This document shows positions 23,663 through 41,918 of a DNA stretch of 64,000 nucleotides, piece by piece. How positions within the stretch are numbered: the stretch's first letter is position 1; each line of letters starts with the position of its first letter. The notes below the pieces were generated by a model. The model was not told the origin of the DNA and did no database searches. It saw only the letters and a list, made by a program, of their open reading frames with translations. The stretch is from assembly GCA_031365865.1 (NCBI GenBank), contig JANLYX010000018.1, forward strand, positions 6,859 to 70,858. Reading direction: 5' to 3'. The translations under genes were made by a program, and so were the position numbers. Source of the DNA: Hyphomicrobium sp. Lineage in GTDB: Bacteria; Pseudomonadota; Alphaproteobacteria; Rhizobiales; Hyphomicrobiaceae.

Positions 23663-24463
23663 ATGAGCGGCACGACCAGCGATGCGGGCGACTATGCGAC
23701 CCACTATCCAAGACATTGGAAGAGCCCGATCTTCAATCCTCCGCGTAGTTTCTGGAACGATTCCTATGGTCTTGCGCTAAACTCGCATCCGGCCGGAAAG
23801 ATCGTGGTGTTCGGCCTGCCGAAGTCCGGCAACGTTTGGGTGAAGTCTCTTATTGTCGATTACTTTCAGATCGCGCCGGTAGAACCGATCTTGGATGTCG
23901 CCAAGCCGGGCGCTGGTATCACGCACCGGCCGTTCGACCGGCACATCGGTATGCGCGAGGATTTCCTGCACGGCGTCTGTATCATCAGAGACCCGCGCGA
24001 TCTGGTGTCGTCGTTCTACAAGTATACGCAAACGCACCGGTTTCGCAGCGCACGCCCCGAGTTCCACTATGACGACGTGCGATCGTTCTATTATGATTGG
24101 TTTCTATCGCGTAGCGTCGGCGCTCATAAATTTTTGACGCATTCCGAGGAGTATGCGCGCCTCGGCGTGCCCATCTTGCGCTACGAAGAGTTGCGGAAGA
24201 ACGGCGCCCGCGAATTGGAGCGCCTCCTTCTGCGGTGGGGATTTGCCCCGGATCAGAAGCGAATTGCAGCGGCGCTGGCGGAAAACGATATCGACAAGCT
24301 TCGCTCCGAAGGTAAACAGCTCGAAAAGCCGATAAGTTCGGAACATTTCCGGGCCGGTGGCGTCGGAACTTATGCCGACGTGTTGCCGGATGAAATAATC
24401 AAGGATATCGAAGAGCGCTTCGAACGAATCCTGCTGCGATGGGGCTACACCTTGCGCCAGTAA
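23663..24463 (+). CDS. PAPS-dependent sulfotransferase
   Basis: VFGLPKSGNVW (5'-PSB loop), IIRDPRDLVSSFY (3'-PB), LRYEEL, HFRAGGVG. Confidence 0.8.
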   Translation: MSGTTSDAGDYATHYPRHWKSPIFNPPRSFWNDSYGLALNSHPAGKIVVFGLPKSGNVWVKSLIVDYFQIAPVEPILDVAKPGAGITHRPFDRHIGMREDFLHGVCIIRDPRDLVSSFYKYTQTHRFRSARPEFHYDDVRSFYYDWFLSRSVGAHKFLTHSEEYARLGVPILRYEELRKNGARELERLLLRWGFAPDQKRIAAALAENDIDKLRSEGKQLEKPISSEHFRAGGVGTYADVLPDEIIKDIEERFERILLRWGYTLRQ

Positions 24464-24532
24464 CTTGGCGTAAATCGATGTTGGCGCTCGCAGCCGATAA
24501 CGGATTAGCGGGGTTTTCCGAATGGAGTTTCC

Positions 24533-25594
24533 GTGATGGGACGTTTGCTTCTCAACGCCATTAACACGTATGCGCGGGCCCTTGGCAAAGATGCCGTTTG
24601 GGTGTCGATTGCAACGTCGAAAGCCGAGCGAAAAATCGACGAGCTCATCAGCGGTCCCGCTGAAAAATTACTGACCTTTCCGGCGCGCATTAAAATCCCG
24701 CAAGTCGTCGAGACCTCGCGTGGGGTTACCCCGTCGCAAACCGACAGTTATTGGCGCCGGCACACCGTCCGGGGAAAGACATTTCTGTCGCGTCAGGCTT
24801 CACTCGATTATATCAGGGAATTGACCGACGGCCGGCCGCTGAAGCGCGACCTGCTTAAACTTCATGGGCCCCACAAGGGTCAAGTGATTTTGGATTATGG
24901 TTGCGGTCCGGGTAACGACCTGGCGGGTTTTGCCGAGTTTTCCGGCGCCGATAAAATCATCGGCGTCGATATTTCGGCAAAAGCGCTGCAGCTGGCGCGG
25001 TCTCGTGTCAGTTGGCATGCGCAAGAACCCGGCAAGTTGGCGTTCTACAGGGTCGCGGACGAAAATGTACGGCTGCCGCTTGGCGACGGCAGCATCGATT
25101 ATATCCAGTCGCTTGGCGTGATCCATCATGCGTCCGACCCTAATGCGATCTTTCGGGAATTCCATCGTTTGCTTAAGCCGGGCAGTGAAGCGCGCATCAT
25201 GCTGTACAATGCGGATTGCGTTCACGTCCAGCTTGAGGTTGGCTACATCTGGAGGCTCGTCAATCACCAGATGGCGGACAAAAGTCCCGAGCAAGCTTTT
25301 TCCAAGACCGCCGACCTTGGCGCGCCAATTGCGCATTGTGTGCGGCCTGCGGACGTTCACCAATGGTTGCAGGGTGTTGATTTCGATGTCGAGTACCTCG
25401 GAGGGTTCTTTGTGCCGGGCGAAGCTGAAGGGTGGGCCGAGAAGCGCGTGCGCGCGCTCAAGGACGATCGCGTGACGGGTCATCAGAGAGAGTTCATCGA
25501 AGCGCTCGAGCCCCATGAGAGTGGGCTGCCCTATTATCAAGGCAAGCCCGCTGGTCTTGGGGCCGTCTATGTTCTGAGAAAGTCCAAAGGTTGA
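24533..25594 (+). CDS. class I SAM-dependent methyltransferase
   Basis: ILDYGCGPG, GVDIS, GVIHH, LLKPGS. Confidence 0.82.
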   Translation: MMGRLLLNAINTYARALGKDAVWVSIATSKAERKIDELISGPAEKLLTFPARIKIPQVVETSRGVTPSQTDSYWRRHTVRGKTFLSRQASLDYIRELTDGRPLKRDLLKLHGPHKGQVILDYGCGPGNDLAGFAEFSGADKIIGVDISAKALQLARSRVSWHAQEPGKLAFYRVADENVRLPLGDGSIDYIQSLGVIHHASDPNAIFREFHRLLKPGSEARIMLYNADCVHVQLEVGYIWRLVNHQMADKSPEQAFSKTADLGAPIAHCVRPADVHQWLQGVDFDVEYLGGFFVPGEAEGWAEKRVRALKDDRVTGHQREFIEALEPHESGLPYYQGKPAGLGAVYVLRKSKG

Positions 25595-39624: not shown

Positions 39625-40911
39625 TCAGAGACGCCACAGCCGCGCGCCCGTGGCCGCAACGGCGGCTTGATCGTAAGCGCATTTGACGTCGGCGAAGACG
39701 CCGCCAGTTTTGAGTTTCCCGGTCAATTTCTCGATGCCCATGCCGAGATAATCCTGATGCGAGACGGCGGCGACAATGGCTTCCGATTTCGGCAACTTAT
39801 CCCAAGGCGTCAGGGCGATGCCATACTCGTGTTCGCACTCGCCGCTGTCGGCGATGGGATCATGAGCGTGAACGGTGCAGCCGAAGCTTTGCAGTTCGCG
39901 CACAACGTCGATGACTTTGCTGTTGCGGATGTCGCGGCAGTTTTCTTTGAACGTCATGCCAAGCACGATGACGTTGGCGCCCTTGATGGCAAAATTCTGC
40001 GCGATCATGTGTTTGACGGTTTGCTCGGCGACGAACTTGCCCATGCCGTCGTTGATGCGCCGTCCGGCCAGAATGACTTCGGGGTGATAGCCAAGCTGAG
40101 CGGCCTTGTGAGTGAGATAATAGGGATCGACGCCGATGCAATGGCCGCCGACGAGACCGGGACGAAACGGCAGGAAATTCCACTTCGTGCCGGCAGCCTT
40201 CAACACTTCGATGGTATCGATGCCGACTTTTTGGAAAATCACCGCCAGCTCGTTCATGAGCGCGATGTTGAGATCGCGCTGGGTGTTCTCGATGACCTTG
40301 GCGGCTTCCGCGACCTTGATGGAGCTTGCCGGATAGACGCCGGCCGTGATGATGGCGCCGTAGATCTCGGCAACTTTTTTCAAGGTCTCGGGCGTGTCGC
40401 CGGAGACGACCTTGACGATTTTGGTCAGCGTGCGCTCTTTGTCGCCCGGGTTGATGCGCTCTGGCGAATAGCCGACGAAGAAATCCTTTTTCCATTTCAG
40501 GCCCGACAGCCGTTCGATGATGGGAATGCAGATTTCTTCGGTGGCGCCGGGATAGACGGTCGATTCGAAGACGACGATGGTGCCGGGCTTGATGTGGCGG
40601 CCGACGGTTTCAGAGCTTTTCACGAGCGGCGTGAAATCTGGATTGTTGACATGGTCTACCGGCGTTGGCACGGCGACGACGATAAAATTCGCGTTGGCGA
40701 TGGAAGCGGGATCGGTCGAGCAGTGCAGATGCTTCGAGGCTTTCAGCTCCTCGCTCGACATTTCGCCAGTGGGATCGACGAACGCCTTGTATGCGGCGAC
40801 CTTCTCAGCGGAGAGATCAAGCCCATAGGTTTCAAATTTCTTGCCGAATTCGACGGCGAGCGGCAGGCCGACGTAACCCAATCCGATGACGGCGATTTTG
40901 TCGGTCGACAC
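39625..40911 (-). CDS. UDP-HexNAc 6-dehydrogenase (WbpA/WbpO/TviB type)
   Basis: IAVIGLGYVGLPLA, ESTVYPG, SPERINPG, ENTQRD, GGHCIGVDPYYL; GTG start at 40911 with GGAG upstream. Confidence 0.88.
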   Translation of the reverse strand: MSTDKIAVIGLGYVGLPLAVEFGKKFETYGLDLSAEKVAAYKAFVDPTGEMSSEELKASKHLHCSTDPASIANANFIVVAVPTPVDHVNNPDFTPLVKSSETVGRHIKPGTIVVFESTVYPGATEEICIPIIERLSGLKWKKDFFVGYSPERINPGDKERTLTKIVKVVSGDTPETLKKVAEIYGAIITAGVYPASSIKVAEAAKVIENTQRDLNIALMNELAVIFQKVGIDTIEVLKAAGTKWNFLPFRPGLVGGHCIGVDPYYLTHKAAQLGYHPEVILAGRRINDGMGKFVAEQTVKHMIAQNFAIKGANVIVLGMTFKENCRDIRNSKVIDVVRELQSFGCTVHAHDPIADSGECEHEYGIALTPWDKLPKSEAIVAAVSHQDYLGMGIEKLTGKLKTGGVFADVKCAYDQAAVAATGARLWRL

Positions 40912-41072
40912 GGTCTTGCGATGCTCCCCAATATGGCTTCGGCAGGATCGTAAAATCCCTCGCGGGTAGCGGTACATGCCTAAGCTTTCGGGGTCAACTG
41001 CGCGGGCCATTTGCTTGTGCCAGCGGGGTTGATTTCCCCTGCGGTCTATCGACCGGGGGAGACGCTCAAGGC

Positions 41073-41918
41073 TTATCCAAGATGGGCGGCGGCGCGGACG
41101 ATAAACGGCGGATTGAGGAAGTTGGTGTCATGCTTGCCGTAGAGCAACGCGCCGCCGTCCAATATCGTGACGGTGCCGCCTGCGGCCGTGACGATGGCGT
41201 GGCCGGCGGCGGTATCCCATTCCTTGGTTGGCCCAAGGCGCGGATAGAGATCGGCCAAGCCTTCGGCGACGAGACAGAATTTCAACGACGAGCCGACGTT
41301 GCGCCGCTCTCCGATCGTGATATTGGAAAGCCAGTGTTCGAGTTCCGGTGATCCGTGCGACCGGCTCGCGACGATTGTTTGGGGTGCACGCGGATCGTGA
41401 CTGCGAACCGCCAAGCGCGTCAACATCAGGTGATCGAGATCGGGTGCGGGGTGATCAGGCGCGATGTTCGCGGTCACTGCGTGGGTGCGGCCGAGCGTGA
41501 TGTAGAGCTTCGACAAAGCCGGCGCATAAATAACGCCAAAGACGGGAACGCCGTTGTCGATCAAGCCAACGTTGATTGTGAATTCGCCGATGCCGTTGGT
41601 GAACTCGCGCGTGCCGTCGAGCGGATCGACGAGGAAAAACTGCGAGGCGGTTGTGGATGCCGCGCCGCCGGCGTGAGCTTCCTCGGCGACGACGGGAATG
41701 CCGGGTGCAATACGGCTAAGCGCTGCAAGCAGAATATCTTCCGAGAGCTGATCGGCAATTGTGACGGGCGAACCGTCGCTTTTACTTGCGACGGCACCGC
41801 CAGCCTTGAAGTGCCGCATGGTGACCCGGCCGGCAGCGATGACGGCGGGCAAAAGTTCGCGGGCGAGGTGGTCTTCATCATGAATTTTCAACACGGCGAT
41901 CCTGGACCTAGACGGCAT
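41073..41918 (-). CDS. cysQ: 3'(2'),5'-bisphosphate nucleotidase CysQ
   Basis: PVTIAD, LVDPLDGTREF, GSSLK, PRLGPTKEWDTAAG. Confidence 0.9.
   Translation of the reverse strand: MPSRSRIAVLKIHDEDHLARELLPAVIAAGRVTMRHFKAGGAVASKSDGSPVTIADQLSEDILLAALSRIAPGIPVVAEEAHAGGAASTTASQFFLVDPLDGTREFTNGIGEFTINVGLIDNGVPVFGVIYAPALSKLYITLGRTHAVTANIAPDHPAPDLDHLMLTRLAVRSHDPRAPQTIVASRSHGSPELEHWLSNITIGERRNVGSSLKFCLVAEGLADLYPRLGPTKEWDTAAGHAIVTAAGGTVTILDGGALLYGKHDTNFLNPPFIVRAAAHLG

What the first reader, a model, noticed from the sequence alone, without database searches (positions are those of the whole stretch)
23663..41918. Dedicated sulfation module (two sulfotransferases + CysC + CysQ) embedded in the polysaccharide locus
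Seen: two PAPS-binding sulfotransferases of different subfamilies, a stand-alone APS kinase (29340) and the PAP phosphatase CysQ (41073); no cysDN in the window. Known: CysC makes PAPS and CysQ removes inhibitory PAP; sulfated bacterial surface glycans are rare and best known from rhizobia (LpsS, KpsS). Inference: a sulfated diacetamido-uronamide polymer would be a new glycan chemistry.
Basis: partly seen in the sequence, partly recalled or inferred. Interest (0 to 1): 0.7.

Follow-up and report, generated by a model that had tools for sequence, protein, structure and literature searches.

The report
Sulfation genes inside a surface-glycan locus
One operon for building and exporting a surface sugar polymer holds this bacterium's only two sulfotransferases and its only enzyme that makes their sulfate donor, so the polymer is very probably sulfated. 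That design is already known from marine bacteria, but one of the two enzymes travels across phyla with the exporter's cap-reading domain and may write a sulfate 'stop' mark.

Summary
ST1 (23663-24463, PF00685), ST2 (25597-26568, PF13469), CysC (29340-29966) and CysQ (41073-41918) are all real and pass curated cut-offs.

The whole genome supports the word 'dedicated'. cysH-cysD-cysN lie on another contig, and CysH is the APS-reductase type, so sulfur assimilation needs no PAPS. The window's CysC is the only APS kinase in the genome, and ST1 and ST2 are its only detectable PAPS-type sulfotransferases. CysQ is a second copy of a class that, in congeners, always lies within 7 kb of cysC.

ST1, ST2 and cysC sit in one tightly packed operon with wzm and wzt. 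The Wzt C-terminal domain folds as a Wzt cap-binding domain. Homologues of both sulfotransferases recur in glycan loci of five or more phyla that make di-N-acetyl-uronic acid or uronamide sugars.

The best reading is PAPS-dependent sulfation of a Wzm/Wzt-exported glycan.

The new element is the link between ST1 and Wzt. ST1 lies beside or on the same contig as wzm-wzt carrying that domain in 12 of 14 loci (adjacent in 8). One homologue is fused to a roughly 500-residue helical rod. This suggests, but does not prove, sulfate as a chain-terminating cap.

No chemistry or expression data exist.

The parts
11535..14257 (+). WbpB-like oxidoreductase (11535-12530), WbpD-like hexapeptide N-acetyltransferase (12514-13110) and WbpE-like DegT aminotransferase (13061-14257). 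These are the 2,3-diamino-uronic acid pathway.
   Evidence: Pfam matches GFO_IDH_MocA, Hexapep and DegT_DnrJ_EryC1. Homologues at 54-80% identity recur in loci carrying ST1 or ST2.
14245..18958 (.). Three paralogues of the divergent GT-B-like glycosyltransferase family: 14245-15486(-), 15724-17097(+), 17111-18958(-).
   Evidence: tblastn shows 26-34% identity to the fourth paralogue. The fold of the fourth paralogue is GT-B.
19331..20188 (+). SAM-dependent methyltransferase MT1, first gene of the plus-strand run.
   Evidence: Pfam Methyltransf_11/25.
20274..21320 (+). Non-hydrolysing UDP-GlcNAc 2-epimerase (WecB/WbpI-like).
   Evidence: TIGR00236 scores 295 against a cut-off of 210.
21394..22191 (+). 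Wzm, the ABC-2 permease.
   Evidence: PF01061. The gene call in the identical contig L061 gives the same coordinates.
22175..23635 (+). Wzt ATPase with a C-terminal carbohydrate-binding domain (residues about 321-486, that is 23135-23632).
   Evidence: PF00005 and Wzt/TagH-type NCBIfam hits. Wzt_C is weak, E=0.006. The AF2 model of the C-domain has pLDDT 82.9, and its best PDB matches are all Wzt CBDs: 2r5o, 6o14/8dky and 5hno.
23663..24463 (+). ST1, a PAPS-type sulfotransferase (Sulfotransfer_1) from a rare subfamily. It is a candidate chain-end sulfotransferase.
   Evidence: There are 64 representatives at E<=1e-30 among 1.84 billion. It lies beside wzm-wzt(CBD) in 8 loci and shares a contig with it in 4 more, out of 14.
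24536..25594 (+). MT2, a SAM-dependent methyltransferase with a roughly 100-aa N-terminal extension.
   Evidence: Pfam Methyltransf_11/31/25. It is conserved next to ST1 in L004, L008, L065 and the JGI contig.
25597..26568 (+). ST2, a PAPS-type sulfotransferase (Sulfotransfer_3, the Pfam family that holds NodH).
   Evidence: It travels with the SGNH gene, GT-B-like genes and the WbpBDE/AsnB/SDR pathway even where ST1 and Wzt are absent (L058).
26573..27313 (+). Conserved 246-aa protein with a weak methyltransferase-like signature (VLDVGGG).
   Evidence: Pfam Methyltransf_23/12 only at E of about 0.01. It is conserved in the cassette at 48-51% identity.
27310..27993 (+). SGNH/GDSL hydrolase-fold protein, possibly an O-acyl esterase or transferase.
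   Evidence: PF13472 scores 71.7 bits. It is conserved in the cassette.
28003..29253 (+). Fourth paralogue of the GT-B-like family (called GTl4 in this report; the other three paralogues are GTl1-3).
   Evidence: It has no Pfam hit. The AF2 model has pLDDT 85.8 and matches GT4-type GT-B enzymes BshA, MshA, SdgB and TarM.
29340..29966 (+). CysC, a stand-alone APS kinase, the last gene of the plus-strand run and the only APS kinase in the genome.
30001..41010 (-). Minus-strand glycan block. It holds SDR 30001-31089, a secreted transglutaminase-like protein 31092-32225, SDR 32341-33273, SDR 33289-34236, AsnB-like amidotransferase 34276-36213, GT4 36491-37900, AsnB-like amidotransferase 37612-39570, and a TviB/WbpA-like UDP-GlcNAc 6-dehydrogenase 39625-41010.
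   Evidence: The strain-level recombination break lies at about 36630.
41073..41918 (-). CysQ, a 3'(2'),5'-bisphosphate nucleotidase. It is a second copy, of the class linked to cysC.
   Evidence: A housekeeping paralogue lies on C82. In congeners this class is always within 7 kb of cysC or cysNC.
45046..47999 (+). rmlB, rmlD and rmlA (dTDP-rhamnose pathway). Rhamnose would offer free hydroxyls for sulfation.
   Evidence: TIGR01181, TIGR01214 and TIGR01207 all score above their cut-offs.

Best explanation
The locus builds a lipid-linked surface glycan on the cytoplasmic face of the inner membrane. The sugars include 2,3-di-N-acetyl-uronic acid or uronamide types and probably rhamnose. The glycan is sulfated there with PAPS and exported by Wzm/Wzt.

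Sulfate is activated to APS by the housekeeping CysDN, encoded elsewhere in the genome. APS then branches. The APS-reductase-type CysH takes it to sulfite for assimilation. The locus-encoded CysC, the genome's only APS kinase, converts a share to PAPS.

ST1 and ST2 are the genome's only PAPS-type sulfotransferases. They transfer sulfate to the glycan. The extra CysQ copy hydrolyses the inhibitory by-product PAP.

Shown here: the domain identities, the intact catalytic motifs, the uniqueness of these genes in the genome, the operon-like packing, the Wzt CBD fold and the cross-phylum synteny. Inferred: that the acceptor is this glycan, the positions of the sulfate, and that the genes are expressed.
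For: - Curated-threshold matches exist for all four enzyme types, and their motifs are intact.
- cysH-cysD-cysN lie on contig C38. CysH passes the APS-reductase model (TIGR02055, 242.6 against 235.3) and fails the PAPS-reductase models. It also carries the CC...CXXC iron-sulfur cysteines.
- CysN is not fused to a kinase. It keeps only a P-loop-less vestige of one.
- Complete congeners lacking any APS kinase exist (for example G005, G021), so the kinase is dispensable for assimilation in this genus.
- The window's CysC is the sole APS kinase.
- ST1 and ST2 are the sole PF00685/PF13469 hits. PF03567 and PF17784 give nothing, and a positive control for PF03567 in G002 does ring.
- Genes from 19331 to 29966 are packed with overlaps or small gaps and show no excess of terminator-like sites.
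- ST1 homologues lie in glycan loci in Chloroflexota, Planctomycetota, Bacteroidota, Hyphomonas, Hyphobacterium and others. ST2 homologues lie beside the same WbpBDE, AsnB, SDR and GT-B-like genes.
- One ST1-family protein is fused to a PF13524 glycosyltransferase-like domain plus TPR repeats (P0272).
- The window's CysQ belongs to a higher-scoring class found only next to cysC or cysNC in congeners.
- Precedent: Cobetia marina and Vibrio capsule clusters with in-cluster PAPS genes, sulfotransferases and an ABC transporter make NMR-proven sulfated polymers.
Against:
- cysC is common in the genus without ST1, so it was not acquired together with the sulfotransferases.
- cysQ lies 11 kb away on the other strand. 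It sits in a conserved arm shared with sister strains whose variable arm is different.
- None of the foreign ST1 or ST2 loci examined has cysC or cysQ within 10 kb.
- 2,3-di-N-acetyl-uronamide residues offer only O4 for sulfation, so the bulk polymer may carry little sulfate.
- The genome is 96% complete, so an undetected sulfotransferase or kinase cannot be excluded.
Confidence: 0.75

Rival explanations
1. This is a refinement that overlaps the main reading. ST1 is not a repeat-unit decorator but the chain terminator. It sulfates the acceptor hydroxyl of the non-reducing terminal residue, plausibly O4 of a di-N-acetyl-uronate. That stops elongation and creates the anionic cap that the Wzt C-terminal domain must bind before export. 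ST2 would decorate the polymer body or a capping sugar added by the GT-B-like enzyme.
For: - The Wzt C-domain folds like the cap-binding domains of E. coli O9a, A. aeolicus and Klebsiella O12 Wzt. Such domains read a terminal modification (abstracts).
- ST1 lies directly beside wzm-wzt carrying this domain in the window, L004/5, L031, L064, L032, L034, L065 and a JGI contig. Four more contigs carry both genes. That is 12 of 14 loci where ST1 is at least 40% identical.
- All 7 detectable close homologues of the C-domain among 5.8 billion proteins appear to lie on contigs that also carry ST1. For 5 of them this rests on matching contig lengths.
- The Wzt ATPase domains of ST1-linked loci are 56-66% identical across phyla, against 35-40% for congeners' Wzt.
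- In L032 and L034, ST1 is the only modifying enzyme found next to wzt, in loci making di-N-acyl or acetamidino-uronic acids.
- In L066 a stand-alone Wzt_C gene directly precedes an ST1 homologue. That homologue is fused to a 485-residue, proline-free, helix-type rod reminiscent of the WbdD/WbbB rulers.
- ST2 occurs with the sugar pathway but without ST1 or Wzt in L058.
- Conserved arginines (R13, R71, R125) in the C-domain would suit an anionic ligand.
Against: - ST1 occurs without any ABC transporter in L008 (a Wzx-type flippase context) and in L030. More distant ST1 relatives (below 40% identity) pair with AsnB in loci that have no ABC ATPase within 10 kb.
- The window's ST1 has no coiled coil.
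- Methyltransferases in the same operon are equally good candidates for a conventional methyl cap.
- Adjacency could simply reflect co-transfer of a locus.
- No sulfate cap has been described (0 mentions of sulfate in the Wzt papers retrieved).
Confidence: 0.35
2. The sulfotransferases act on something other than the exported glycan: a small metabolite, a lipid or lipid A-core, or a peptide tyrosine. ST2's Pfam family also contains TPST-like and RaxST-like enzymes. On this reading their position in the locus is incidental.
For: The nearest solved structures by sequence are small-molecule or peptide sulfotransferases: SULT1A3 and StaL for ST1, TPST2 and CurM for ST2. All are at weak E-values. 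A Planctomycete homologue of ST1 sits with only two SDR genes.
Against: Both sulfotransferases show conserved synteny with glycan genes in more than five phyla. The ST1 family includes a fusion to a glycosyltransferase-like domain. Both genes are translationally packed between wzt and a GT-B-like gene. No peptide substrate or secretion genes of the RaxX/RaxABC type were seen in the window.
Confidence: 0.07
3. cysC and cysQ are ordinary sulfur-metabolism genes that happen to lie near the glycan genes, and PAPS has another main use in this organism.
For: cysC, often with a neighbouring cysQ, is present in about 20 of 36 congeners that lack ST1, sometimes with no obvious sulfotransferase nearby (for example next to Nramp in G011). 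cysQ lies in the conserved arm of the locus.
Against: Assimilation uses an APS reductase. Complete congeners do without any APS kinase. The only PAPS consumers detectable in this genome are ST1 and ST2. In other congeners cysC lies next to a Sulfotransfer_2 gene (G002), next to glycosyltransferases and rml genes (G014), next to a wbpBDE/wzt locus (G009), or as cysNC-cysQ beside a PF13469 sulfotransferase and wzt (G017, G019, G036). The genus therefore uses it for sulfation generally.
Confidence: 0.08

Closest known systems
Sulfated capsule gene clusters of Cobetia marina KMM 1449 (PMC11766843) and Vibrio sp. KMM 8419 (PMC11641403)
   Same: Sulfotransferase genes, PAPS-cycle genes (cysC or cysNC; cysQ in Cobetia) and an ABC transporter all sit in one polysaccharide cluster that also holds rml genes. 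The Vibrio authors call PAPS genes plus sulfotransferases in a cluster a hallmark of sulfated polysaccharide synthesis.
   Different: Those clusters are KpsMTED/KpsSC capsule systems. They carry their own second cysDN copies (plus a sulfate permease in Cobetia) and sulfate rhamnose. Here the exporter is Wzm/Wzt with a cap-binding domain, only cysC is added to the housekeeping CysDN, and the sugars are di-N-acetyl-uronamide type. Both sulfotransferase families belong to a cassette shared across phyla. No chemistry exists here.
E. coli O9a/O8 WbdD-Wzt and Klebsiella O12 WbbB-Wzt chain termination coupled to export (PMC3482155, PMC9445017, PMC11231755)
   Same: A Wzm/Wzt pathway in which Wzt has a C-terminal carbohydrate-binding domain of the same fold. 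Small-group transferases are encoded next to the transporter. One ST1 homologue carries a long helical rod like the WbdD/WbbB rulers.
   Different: The known caps are methyl, methyl-phosphate or beta-Kdo. Here the candidate writer is a PAPS sulfotransferase. The window's ST1 has no coiled coil, and terminator function is untested.
Rhizobial glycan sulfotransferases NodH, LpsS (S. meliloti) and KpsS (M. loti) (review PMC11625862)
   Same: These are alphaproteobacterial PAPS-dependent sulfation of surface glycoconjugates against a background of APS-reductase assimilation. ST2 falls in the same Pfam family as NodH, with the R-x-G type PSB loop.
   Different: Neither ST1 nor ST2 gives a tblastn match to any rhizobial plasmid at E<=1e-3, so they are not close to NodH or NoeE. 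The rhizobial genes are not embedded in a wzm/wzt operon with cysC (from my own knowledge, not tested).
P. aeruginosa O5 wbp and Bordetella wbm O-antigen pathways (2,3-diacetamido-uronic acids and uronamides, ABC-transporter export, modified terminal residue)
   Same: Homologues of WbpA/B/D/E/I, AsnB-type amidotransferases and three WbmF/G/H-like SDRs are present.
   Different: Those systems have no sulfotransferases or PAPS genes. This comparison rests on established knowledge of the pathways, not on a sequence comparison made here.

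Membership tests
PAPS-dependent sulfotransferase, Sulfotransfer_1 (PF00685): ST1 | Profile score above the gathering cut-off. | tested here: met
   45.4 bits against 22; also 36.6 bits in the genome scan.
PAPS-dependent sulfotransferase, Sulfotransfer_1 (PF00685): ST1 | A 5'-PSB loop with Lys, a 3'-PB Arg/Ser, and a candidate catalytic His. | tested here: met
   PKSGNVW (K54), RDPRDLVSS (R109, S117) and H88 are invariant in 26 homologues. Structural equivalence of H88 to the SULT catalytic His was not checked.
PAPS-dependent sulfotransferase, Sulfotransfer_3 (PF13469, NodH/TPST-like): ST2 | Profile score above the cut-off, plus PSB and 3'-PB motifs. 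| tested here: met
   70.8 bits against 27. PRTGST, R185...S193 and E112 are invariant in 26 homologues.
APS kinase CysC (TIGR00455) | Equivalog score above the cut-off and an intact P-loop. | tested here: met
   237.1 against 138.7, with GLSGAGKST.
CysQ 3'(2'),5'-bisphosphate nucleotidase (TIGR01331) | Equivalog score above the cut-off and the IMPase metal-site motifs. | tested here: met
   244.6 against 228.8, with DPLDGT and WDTAAG. The paralogue on C82 scores 223, below the cut-off.
Sulfated-polysaccharide gene cluster with its own PAPS supply (Cobetia/Vibrio type) | Sulfotransferase genes and glycan assembly and export genes in one cluster. | tested here: met
Sulfated-polysaccharide gene cluster with its own PAPS supply (Cobetia/Vibrio type) | A complete in-cluster PAPS route (cysD, cysN, cysC, with or without a permease). 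| tested here: not met
   Only cysC and cysQ are in the locus. The single cysDN is on contig C38 together with cysH.
Sulfated-polysaccharide gene cluster with its own PAPS supply (Cobetia/Vibrio type) | The polymer is shown chemically to carry sulfate. | not testable with these tools
Terminator-gated Wzm/Wzt O-polysaccharide pathway (E. coli O9a type) | Wzt carries a C-terminal cap-binding carbohydrate-binding domain. | tested here: met
   The model has pLDDT 82.9. Its top PDB matches are 2r5o, 6o14/8dky (TM 0.67/0.77) and 5hno. Pfam Wzt_C is only weak (E=0.006).
Terminator-gated Wzm/Wzt O-polysaccharide pathway (E. coli O9a type) | A dedicated terminating enzyme, usually with a coiled-coil ruler. 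| tested here: inconclusive
   The candidates are ST1, MT1, MT2 and the methyltransferase-like protein. The window's ST1 has no coiled coil, whereas its homologue P0232 does.
Assimilation through APS reductase (this makes APS kinase non-essential) | CysH of the iron-sulfur type: it passes TIGR02055 and has the CC...CXXC cysteines. | tested here: met
   242.6 against 235.3. The PAPS-reductase models fall below their cut-offs. The motifs ACCDVRK and CQPC are present.
Rhizobial NodH / LpsS / KpsS | Close sequence relationship. | tested here: not met
   Neither ST1 nor ST2 hits any rhizobial plasmid, where NodH is encoded. LpsS and KpsS themselves were not compared.

The most novel reading that the evidence does not exclude
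Sulfate is a previously undescribed chain-terminating cap of ABC-transporter-dependent glycans, and the rare ST1 subfamily is its writer. ST1 would sulfate the only free hydroxyl (O4) of the terminal di-N-acyl-uronate, which stops elongation. The co-inherited, arginine-rich Wzt C-terminal domain would read the sulfated end and license export. The wzm-wzt(CBD)-ST1 triad spread across Alphaproteobacteria, Chloroflexota, Planctomycetota and Bacteroidota would be a mobile 'stop-and-export' unit. In some lineages ST1 carries its own helical ruler.
Probability: 0.35. Interest if true: 0.8.

Novelty: new variant of a known kind. Interest (0 to 1): 0.5.

Why it matters
If the prediction holds, sulfated surface glycans are not a marine curiosity. 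They would also occur in a non-marine-type alphaproteobacterial lineage; an earlier unchecked note calls it Hyphomicrobium. Through the shared cassette they would also occur in Chloroflexota, Planctomycetota and Bacteroidota.

The genome offers a clean natural design: one housekeeping ATP sulfurylase feeds two branches, with APS kinase as the committed step to glycan sulfation. That design is useful for engineering sulfated polysaccharides.

The tight link between ST1 and the Wzt cap-binding domain makes one specific open question directly testable. That question is which chemical groups can serve as export-licensing caps in the ABC-transporter pathway.

Tried and rejected
- **cysC tracking ST1 in the genus.** I expected this and rejected it. 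ST1 is absent from all 36 congeners and 24 relatives in the order, yet about 20 congeners have cysC or cysNC. The PAPS branch is therefore older than the sulfotransferase cassette.
- **Sequence search of solved structures.** For ST1, ST2 and the GT-like protein it gave only weak or meaningless hits. Fold search was needed.
- **tblastn against plasmids.** This was meant to relate the sulfotransferases to NodH or NoeE. ST1 gave nothing, and ST2 gave only three non-rhizobial hits.
- **Promoter and terminator scan of 18800-30200.** Counts were not above the shuffled controls, so it gives no positive operon evidence beyond the gene spacing.
- **Naming the organism from 90% clusters.** No names came back. 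'Hyphomicrobium' rests only on an earlier unchecked note.
- **Look-up of the Pelagibius ST2 homologue P0107.** It is not on record.
- **Literature on sulfated 2,3-diacetamido-uronic polymers or Hyphomicrobium sulfated LPS.** Nothing relevant was found. That is absence in the held library only.
- **'Methyl-sulfate' cap by analogy with methyl-phosphate.** I considered this and rejected it, because dialkyl sulfates are chemically implausible.

Full report
**What is there**

The window (contig C75:6859-70858 of a 3.23-Mb, 97-contig genome that is 96% complete) holds a surface-glycan locus of about 40 kb, running from roughly 7.7 to 48 kb.

On the plus strand, genes are packed with overlaps or short gaps from 19331 to 29966. 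In order they are:
- a methyltransferase (MT1);
- a WecB/WbpI-type UDP-GlcNAc 2-epimerase;
- wzm;
- wzt (486 aa);
- ST1;
- a second methyltransferase (MT2);
- ST2;
- a conserved 246-aa protein with a weak methyltransferase signature;
- an SGNH/GDSL protein;
- a 416-aa protein with no Pfam family;
- cysC.

Converging on this run is a minus-strand block (30001-41010). It holds three SDR epimerase/dehydratase homologues, a secreted transglutaminase-like protein, two AsnB-type amidotransferases, a GT4 and a TviB/WbpA-like UDP-GlcNAc 6-dehydrogenase. cysQ follows at 41073-41918.

Upstream lie homologues of WbpB, WbpD and WbpE, and three paralogues of the 416-aa protein. Downstream, past a tail-fibre-like gene, lie rmlB, rmlD and rmlA.

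**Observation check**

ST1 and ST2 exceed the Pfam gathering scores for Sulfotransfer_1 and Sulfotransfer_3 respectively. Both keep the two PAPS-binding motifs.
- In ST1, K54 (PKSGNVW), H88, R109 and S117 (RDPRDLVSS) are invariant across 26 homologues.
- In ST2, PRTGST, E112, R185 and S193 are invariant.

The two profiles are barely related to each other. CysC and CysQ exceed the curated equivalog cut-offs.

**Is the module 'dedicated'?**

The whole genome says yes for cysC and the two sulfotransferases.
- The only cysD and cysN lie on contig C38, in a cysH-cysD-cysN arrangement.
- That CysH passes the thioredoxin-dependent APS-reductase model and fails the PAPS-reductase models. It shows the diagnostic CC...CXXC cysteines. 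By established knowledge of these enzymes, assimilation then proceeds from APS without PAPS.
- CysN (513 aa) is not a CysNC fusion. Its last roughly 75 residues are a weak vestige of an APS kinase without a P-loop.
- The window's CysC is the only APS kinase found by tblastn and by HMM.
- Several complete congeners have no APS kinase at all, which shows it is dispensable for growth in this genus.
- ST1 and ST2 are the only hits in the genome to PF00685 and PF13469. PF03567 and PF17784 give nothing, and the PF03567 search does ring in a congener used as positive control.

The sole PAPS producer and the sole detectable PAPS consumers are thus in one gene run.

**CysQ is less simple**

The genome has two CysQ-like genes. 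Across the genus there are two classes.
- A lower-scoring class (about 203-225 bits) is present in essentially every genome.
- A higher-scoring class (240 bits or more) is present only in the window's genome and six congeners. In all six it lies within 7 kb of cysC or cysNC.

The window's CysQ is of the second class, which supports a role in clearing PAP from sulfotransfer.

However, metagenomic contigs from sister strains are 96-98% identical in DNA from window position 36630 to 56157. They share the right arm of the locus: the 3' part of GT4, AsnB, the dehydrogenase, cysQ, the tail-fibre gene and rml. Their left arm has a different gene set: WbmS-like, SDR, methyltransferase, DAO-type oxidoreductase and another GT4.

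The sulfotransferases and cysC therefore sit in a strain-variable, serotype-like arm with lower G+C (0.553-0.559 against 0.591 for the genome). cysQ sits in the conserved arm.

ST1 is absent from 36 other species of the genus, while cysC is common there. In other species cysC lies next to:
- a Sulfotransfer_2 gene (G002);
- a GT2 and rmlBDA (G014);
- a wbpBDE/GT4/wzt locus (G009);
- or, as cysNC-cysQ, beside a PF13469 sulfotransferase and wzt (G017, G019, G036).

Glycan sulfation thus looks like a recurrent habit of the genus, served by an old PAPS branch and by interchangeable sulfotransferases.

**Is the acceptor the glycan?**

Comparative context says so. The block MT2-ST1-ST2-(methyltransferase-like)-SGNH-(416-aa protein) is conserved, in this or a permuted order, in several places:
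- a metagenomic relative (L004/L005, 51-77% identity);
- two Chloroflexota-type contigs (L031, L064);
- a JGI contig;
- a contig where a Wzx-type flippase replaces wzm/wzt (L008).

The 416-aa protein models confidently (pLDDT 85.8) as a GT-B glycosyltransferase of the GT4 type. One ST1-family protein is fused to a glycosyltransferase-like PF13524 domain and TPR repeats.

ST2, together with the SGNH gene and two GT-B-like genes, also occurs in a locus (L058) that lacks ST1, MT2 and wzm/wzt. That locus shares the WbpB/D/E, AsnB, three SDR and epimerase genes at 54-74% identity.

ST1 homologues in Bacteroidota, Hyphomonas and Hyphobacterium sit among WbpD/E, WbpG-like, HisH/F-like or AsnB genes. 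Both sulfotransferase families are therefore tied to pathways for di-N-acyl-uronic acid or uronamide glycans. It does not show that those residues carry the sulfate; chemically they offer only O4.

**ST1 and the exporter**

The Wzt C-terminal domain (residues 321-486) models at pLDDT 82.9. Its best structural matches are exclusively the cap-binding domains of Wzt from E. coli O9a, Aquifex aeolicus (bound to 3-O-methyl-mannose) and Klebsiella O12. Such domains recognise a chemical modification of the elongating terminus (abstracts).

Several lines link ST1 to this domain.
- Among loci where ST1 is at least 40% identical, it lies directly beside wzm-wzt carrying this domain in 8. It shares a contig with it in 4 more. 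The two exceptions are L008 and L030.
- All seven close homologues of the C-domain found among 5.8 billion proteins appear to lie on ST1-bearing contigs. For five of them this rests on matching contig lengths.
- The Wzt ATPase domains of these loci are 56-66% identical across phyla, against 35-40% for the Wzt proteins of congeners.
- In L066 a stand-alone Wzt_C gene directly precedes an ST1 homologue. That homologue has a 485-residue N-terminal region with no proline that is 69% A/E/L/K/R/Q/D/S. This is a helical rod reminiscent of the rulers of WbdD and WbbB.

These facts motivate the boldest reading, that ST1 writes a sulfate cap that stops elongation and licenses export. They do not prove it. 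Methyltransferases in the same operon could write a conventional cap, and co-transfer alone could explain the adjacency. Other agents of this scan raised the same idea for other sulfotransferase families. That is not independent evidence, though the loci used here are different.

**Comparison with the literature**

Capsule clusters of Cobetia marina KMM 1449 and Vibrio sp. KMM 8419 combine PAPS genes, sulfotransferases and an ABC transporter. Cobetia carries cysNC, cysD, cysQ and a permease; Vibrio carries second copies of cysN, cysD and cysC. Both make NMR-proven sulfated polymers. A 2024 review lists NodH (PF13469), KpsS and Stf0 among bacterial carbohydrate sulfotransferases and notes six bacterial genera with sulfated polysaccharides.

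The finding is thus a known kind of system. It is a variant in four respects:
- it uses a Wzm/Wzt exporter with a cap-binding domain;
- it adds only the kinase step to housekeeping CysDN;
- it concerns di-N-acetyl-uronamide pathways;
- it uses two uncharacterised sulfotransferase subfamilies. ST1 has only 64 representatives at E<=1e-30 among 1.84 billion, and ST2 has more than 355 clusters.

**Verdict**

The best explanation is PAPS-dependent sulfation of the exported glycan, at confidence 0.75. Interest is moderate at 0.5, and comes mainly from the testable link between ST1 and the Wzt cap-binding domain.

Noticed in passing
genome contig C38:38631-38888 (outside the window): CysN (513 aa) ends in a remnant of about 75 residues resembling an APS kinase but lacking the P-loop. 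Similar weak C-terminal hits occur in the CysN proteins of many congeners. It looks like a decayed CysNC fusion.
   Followed up: partly
window about 36630 (inside the GT4 gene 36491-37900): Sister-strain contigs are 96-98% identical to the window from here to 56157 and unrelated to the left of it. They carry instead WbmS-like, SDR, methyltransferase, DAO-type and GT4 genes. This is a serotype-switch recombination junction inside a glycosyltransferase gene.
   Followed up: partly
window 14245-18958 and 28003-29253: Four paralogues with no Pfam family, or only a weak PF13524 match. One was modelled and folds as a GT4-like GT-B enzyme. Homologues accompany ST2 in every cassette seen, and a PF13524 domain is fused to an ST1-type domain in P0272.
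   Followed up: partly
L066:4775-7588: A Wzt_C carbohydrate-binding domain is encoded as a separate 163-aa protein. It lies directly upstream of a 760-aa fusion of a helical rod to a sulfotransferase, and downstream of a short Wzt ATPase.
   Followed up: partly
window 42086-44893; L059 and L060: The DUF2793/SO2946-like tail-fibre-type gene between cysQ and rmlB varies in length between near-identical strains (935, 1026 and 508 aa). Its internal repeats are 72-85% identical.
   Followed up: no
window 31092-32225; L065:4619-5827: A transglutaminase-core protein with an apparent signal peptide is also found next to AsnB, two methyltransferases, ST1 and wzm-wzt in a Gemmataceae contig. It may belong to the same glycan system.
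   Followed up: no
L029 (G019:C4:345001-365000), also G017 and G036: Three congeners carry a different sulfation cluster: cysNC (about 660 aa) with an adjacent cysQ (57% identical to the window's), a PF13469 sulfotransferase about 9 kb away, and a Wzt-like ATPase.
   Followed up: partly
L022:10510-11997 (G002): A 495-aa Sulfotransfer_2 protein lies directly beside the stand-alone cysC of a congener that has no ST1, next to an RND efflux pump.
   Followed up: no
L061: A contig from an independent public run is 99.99% identical to window 13663-29096, so the strain carrying the sulfotransferase cassette has been sampled at least twice.
   Followed up: no
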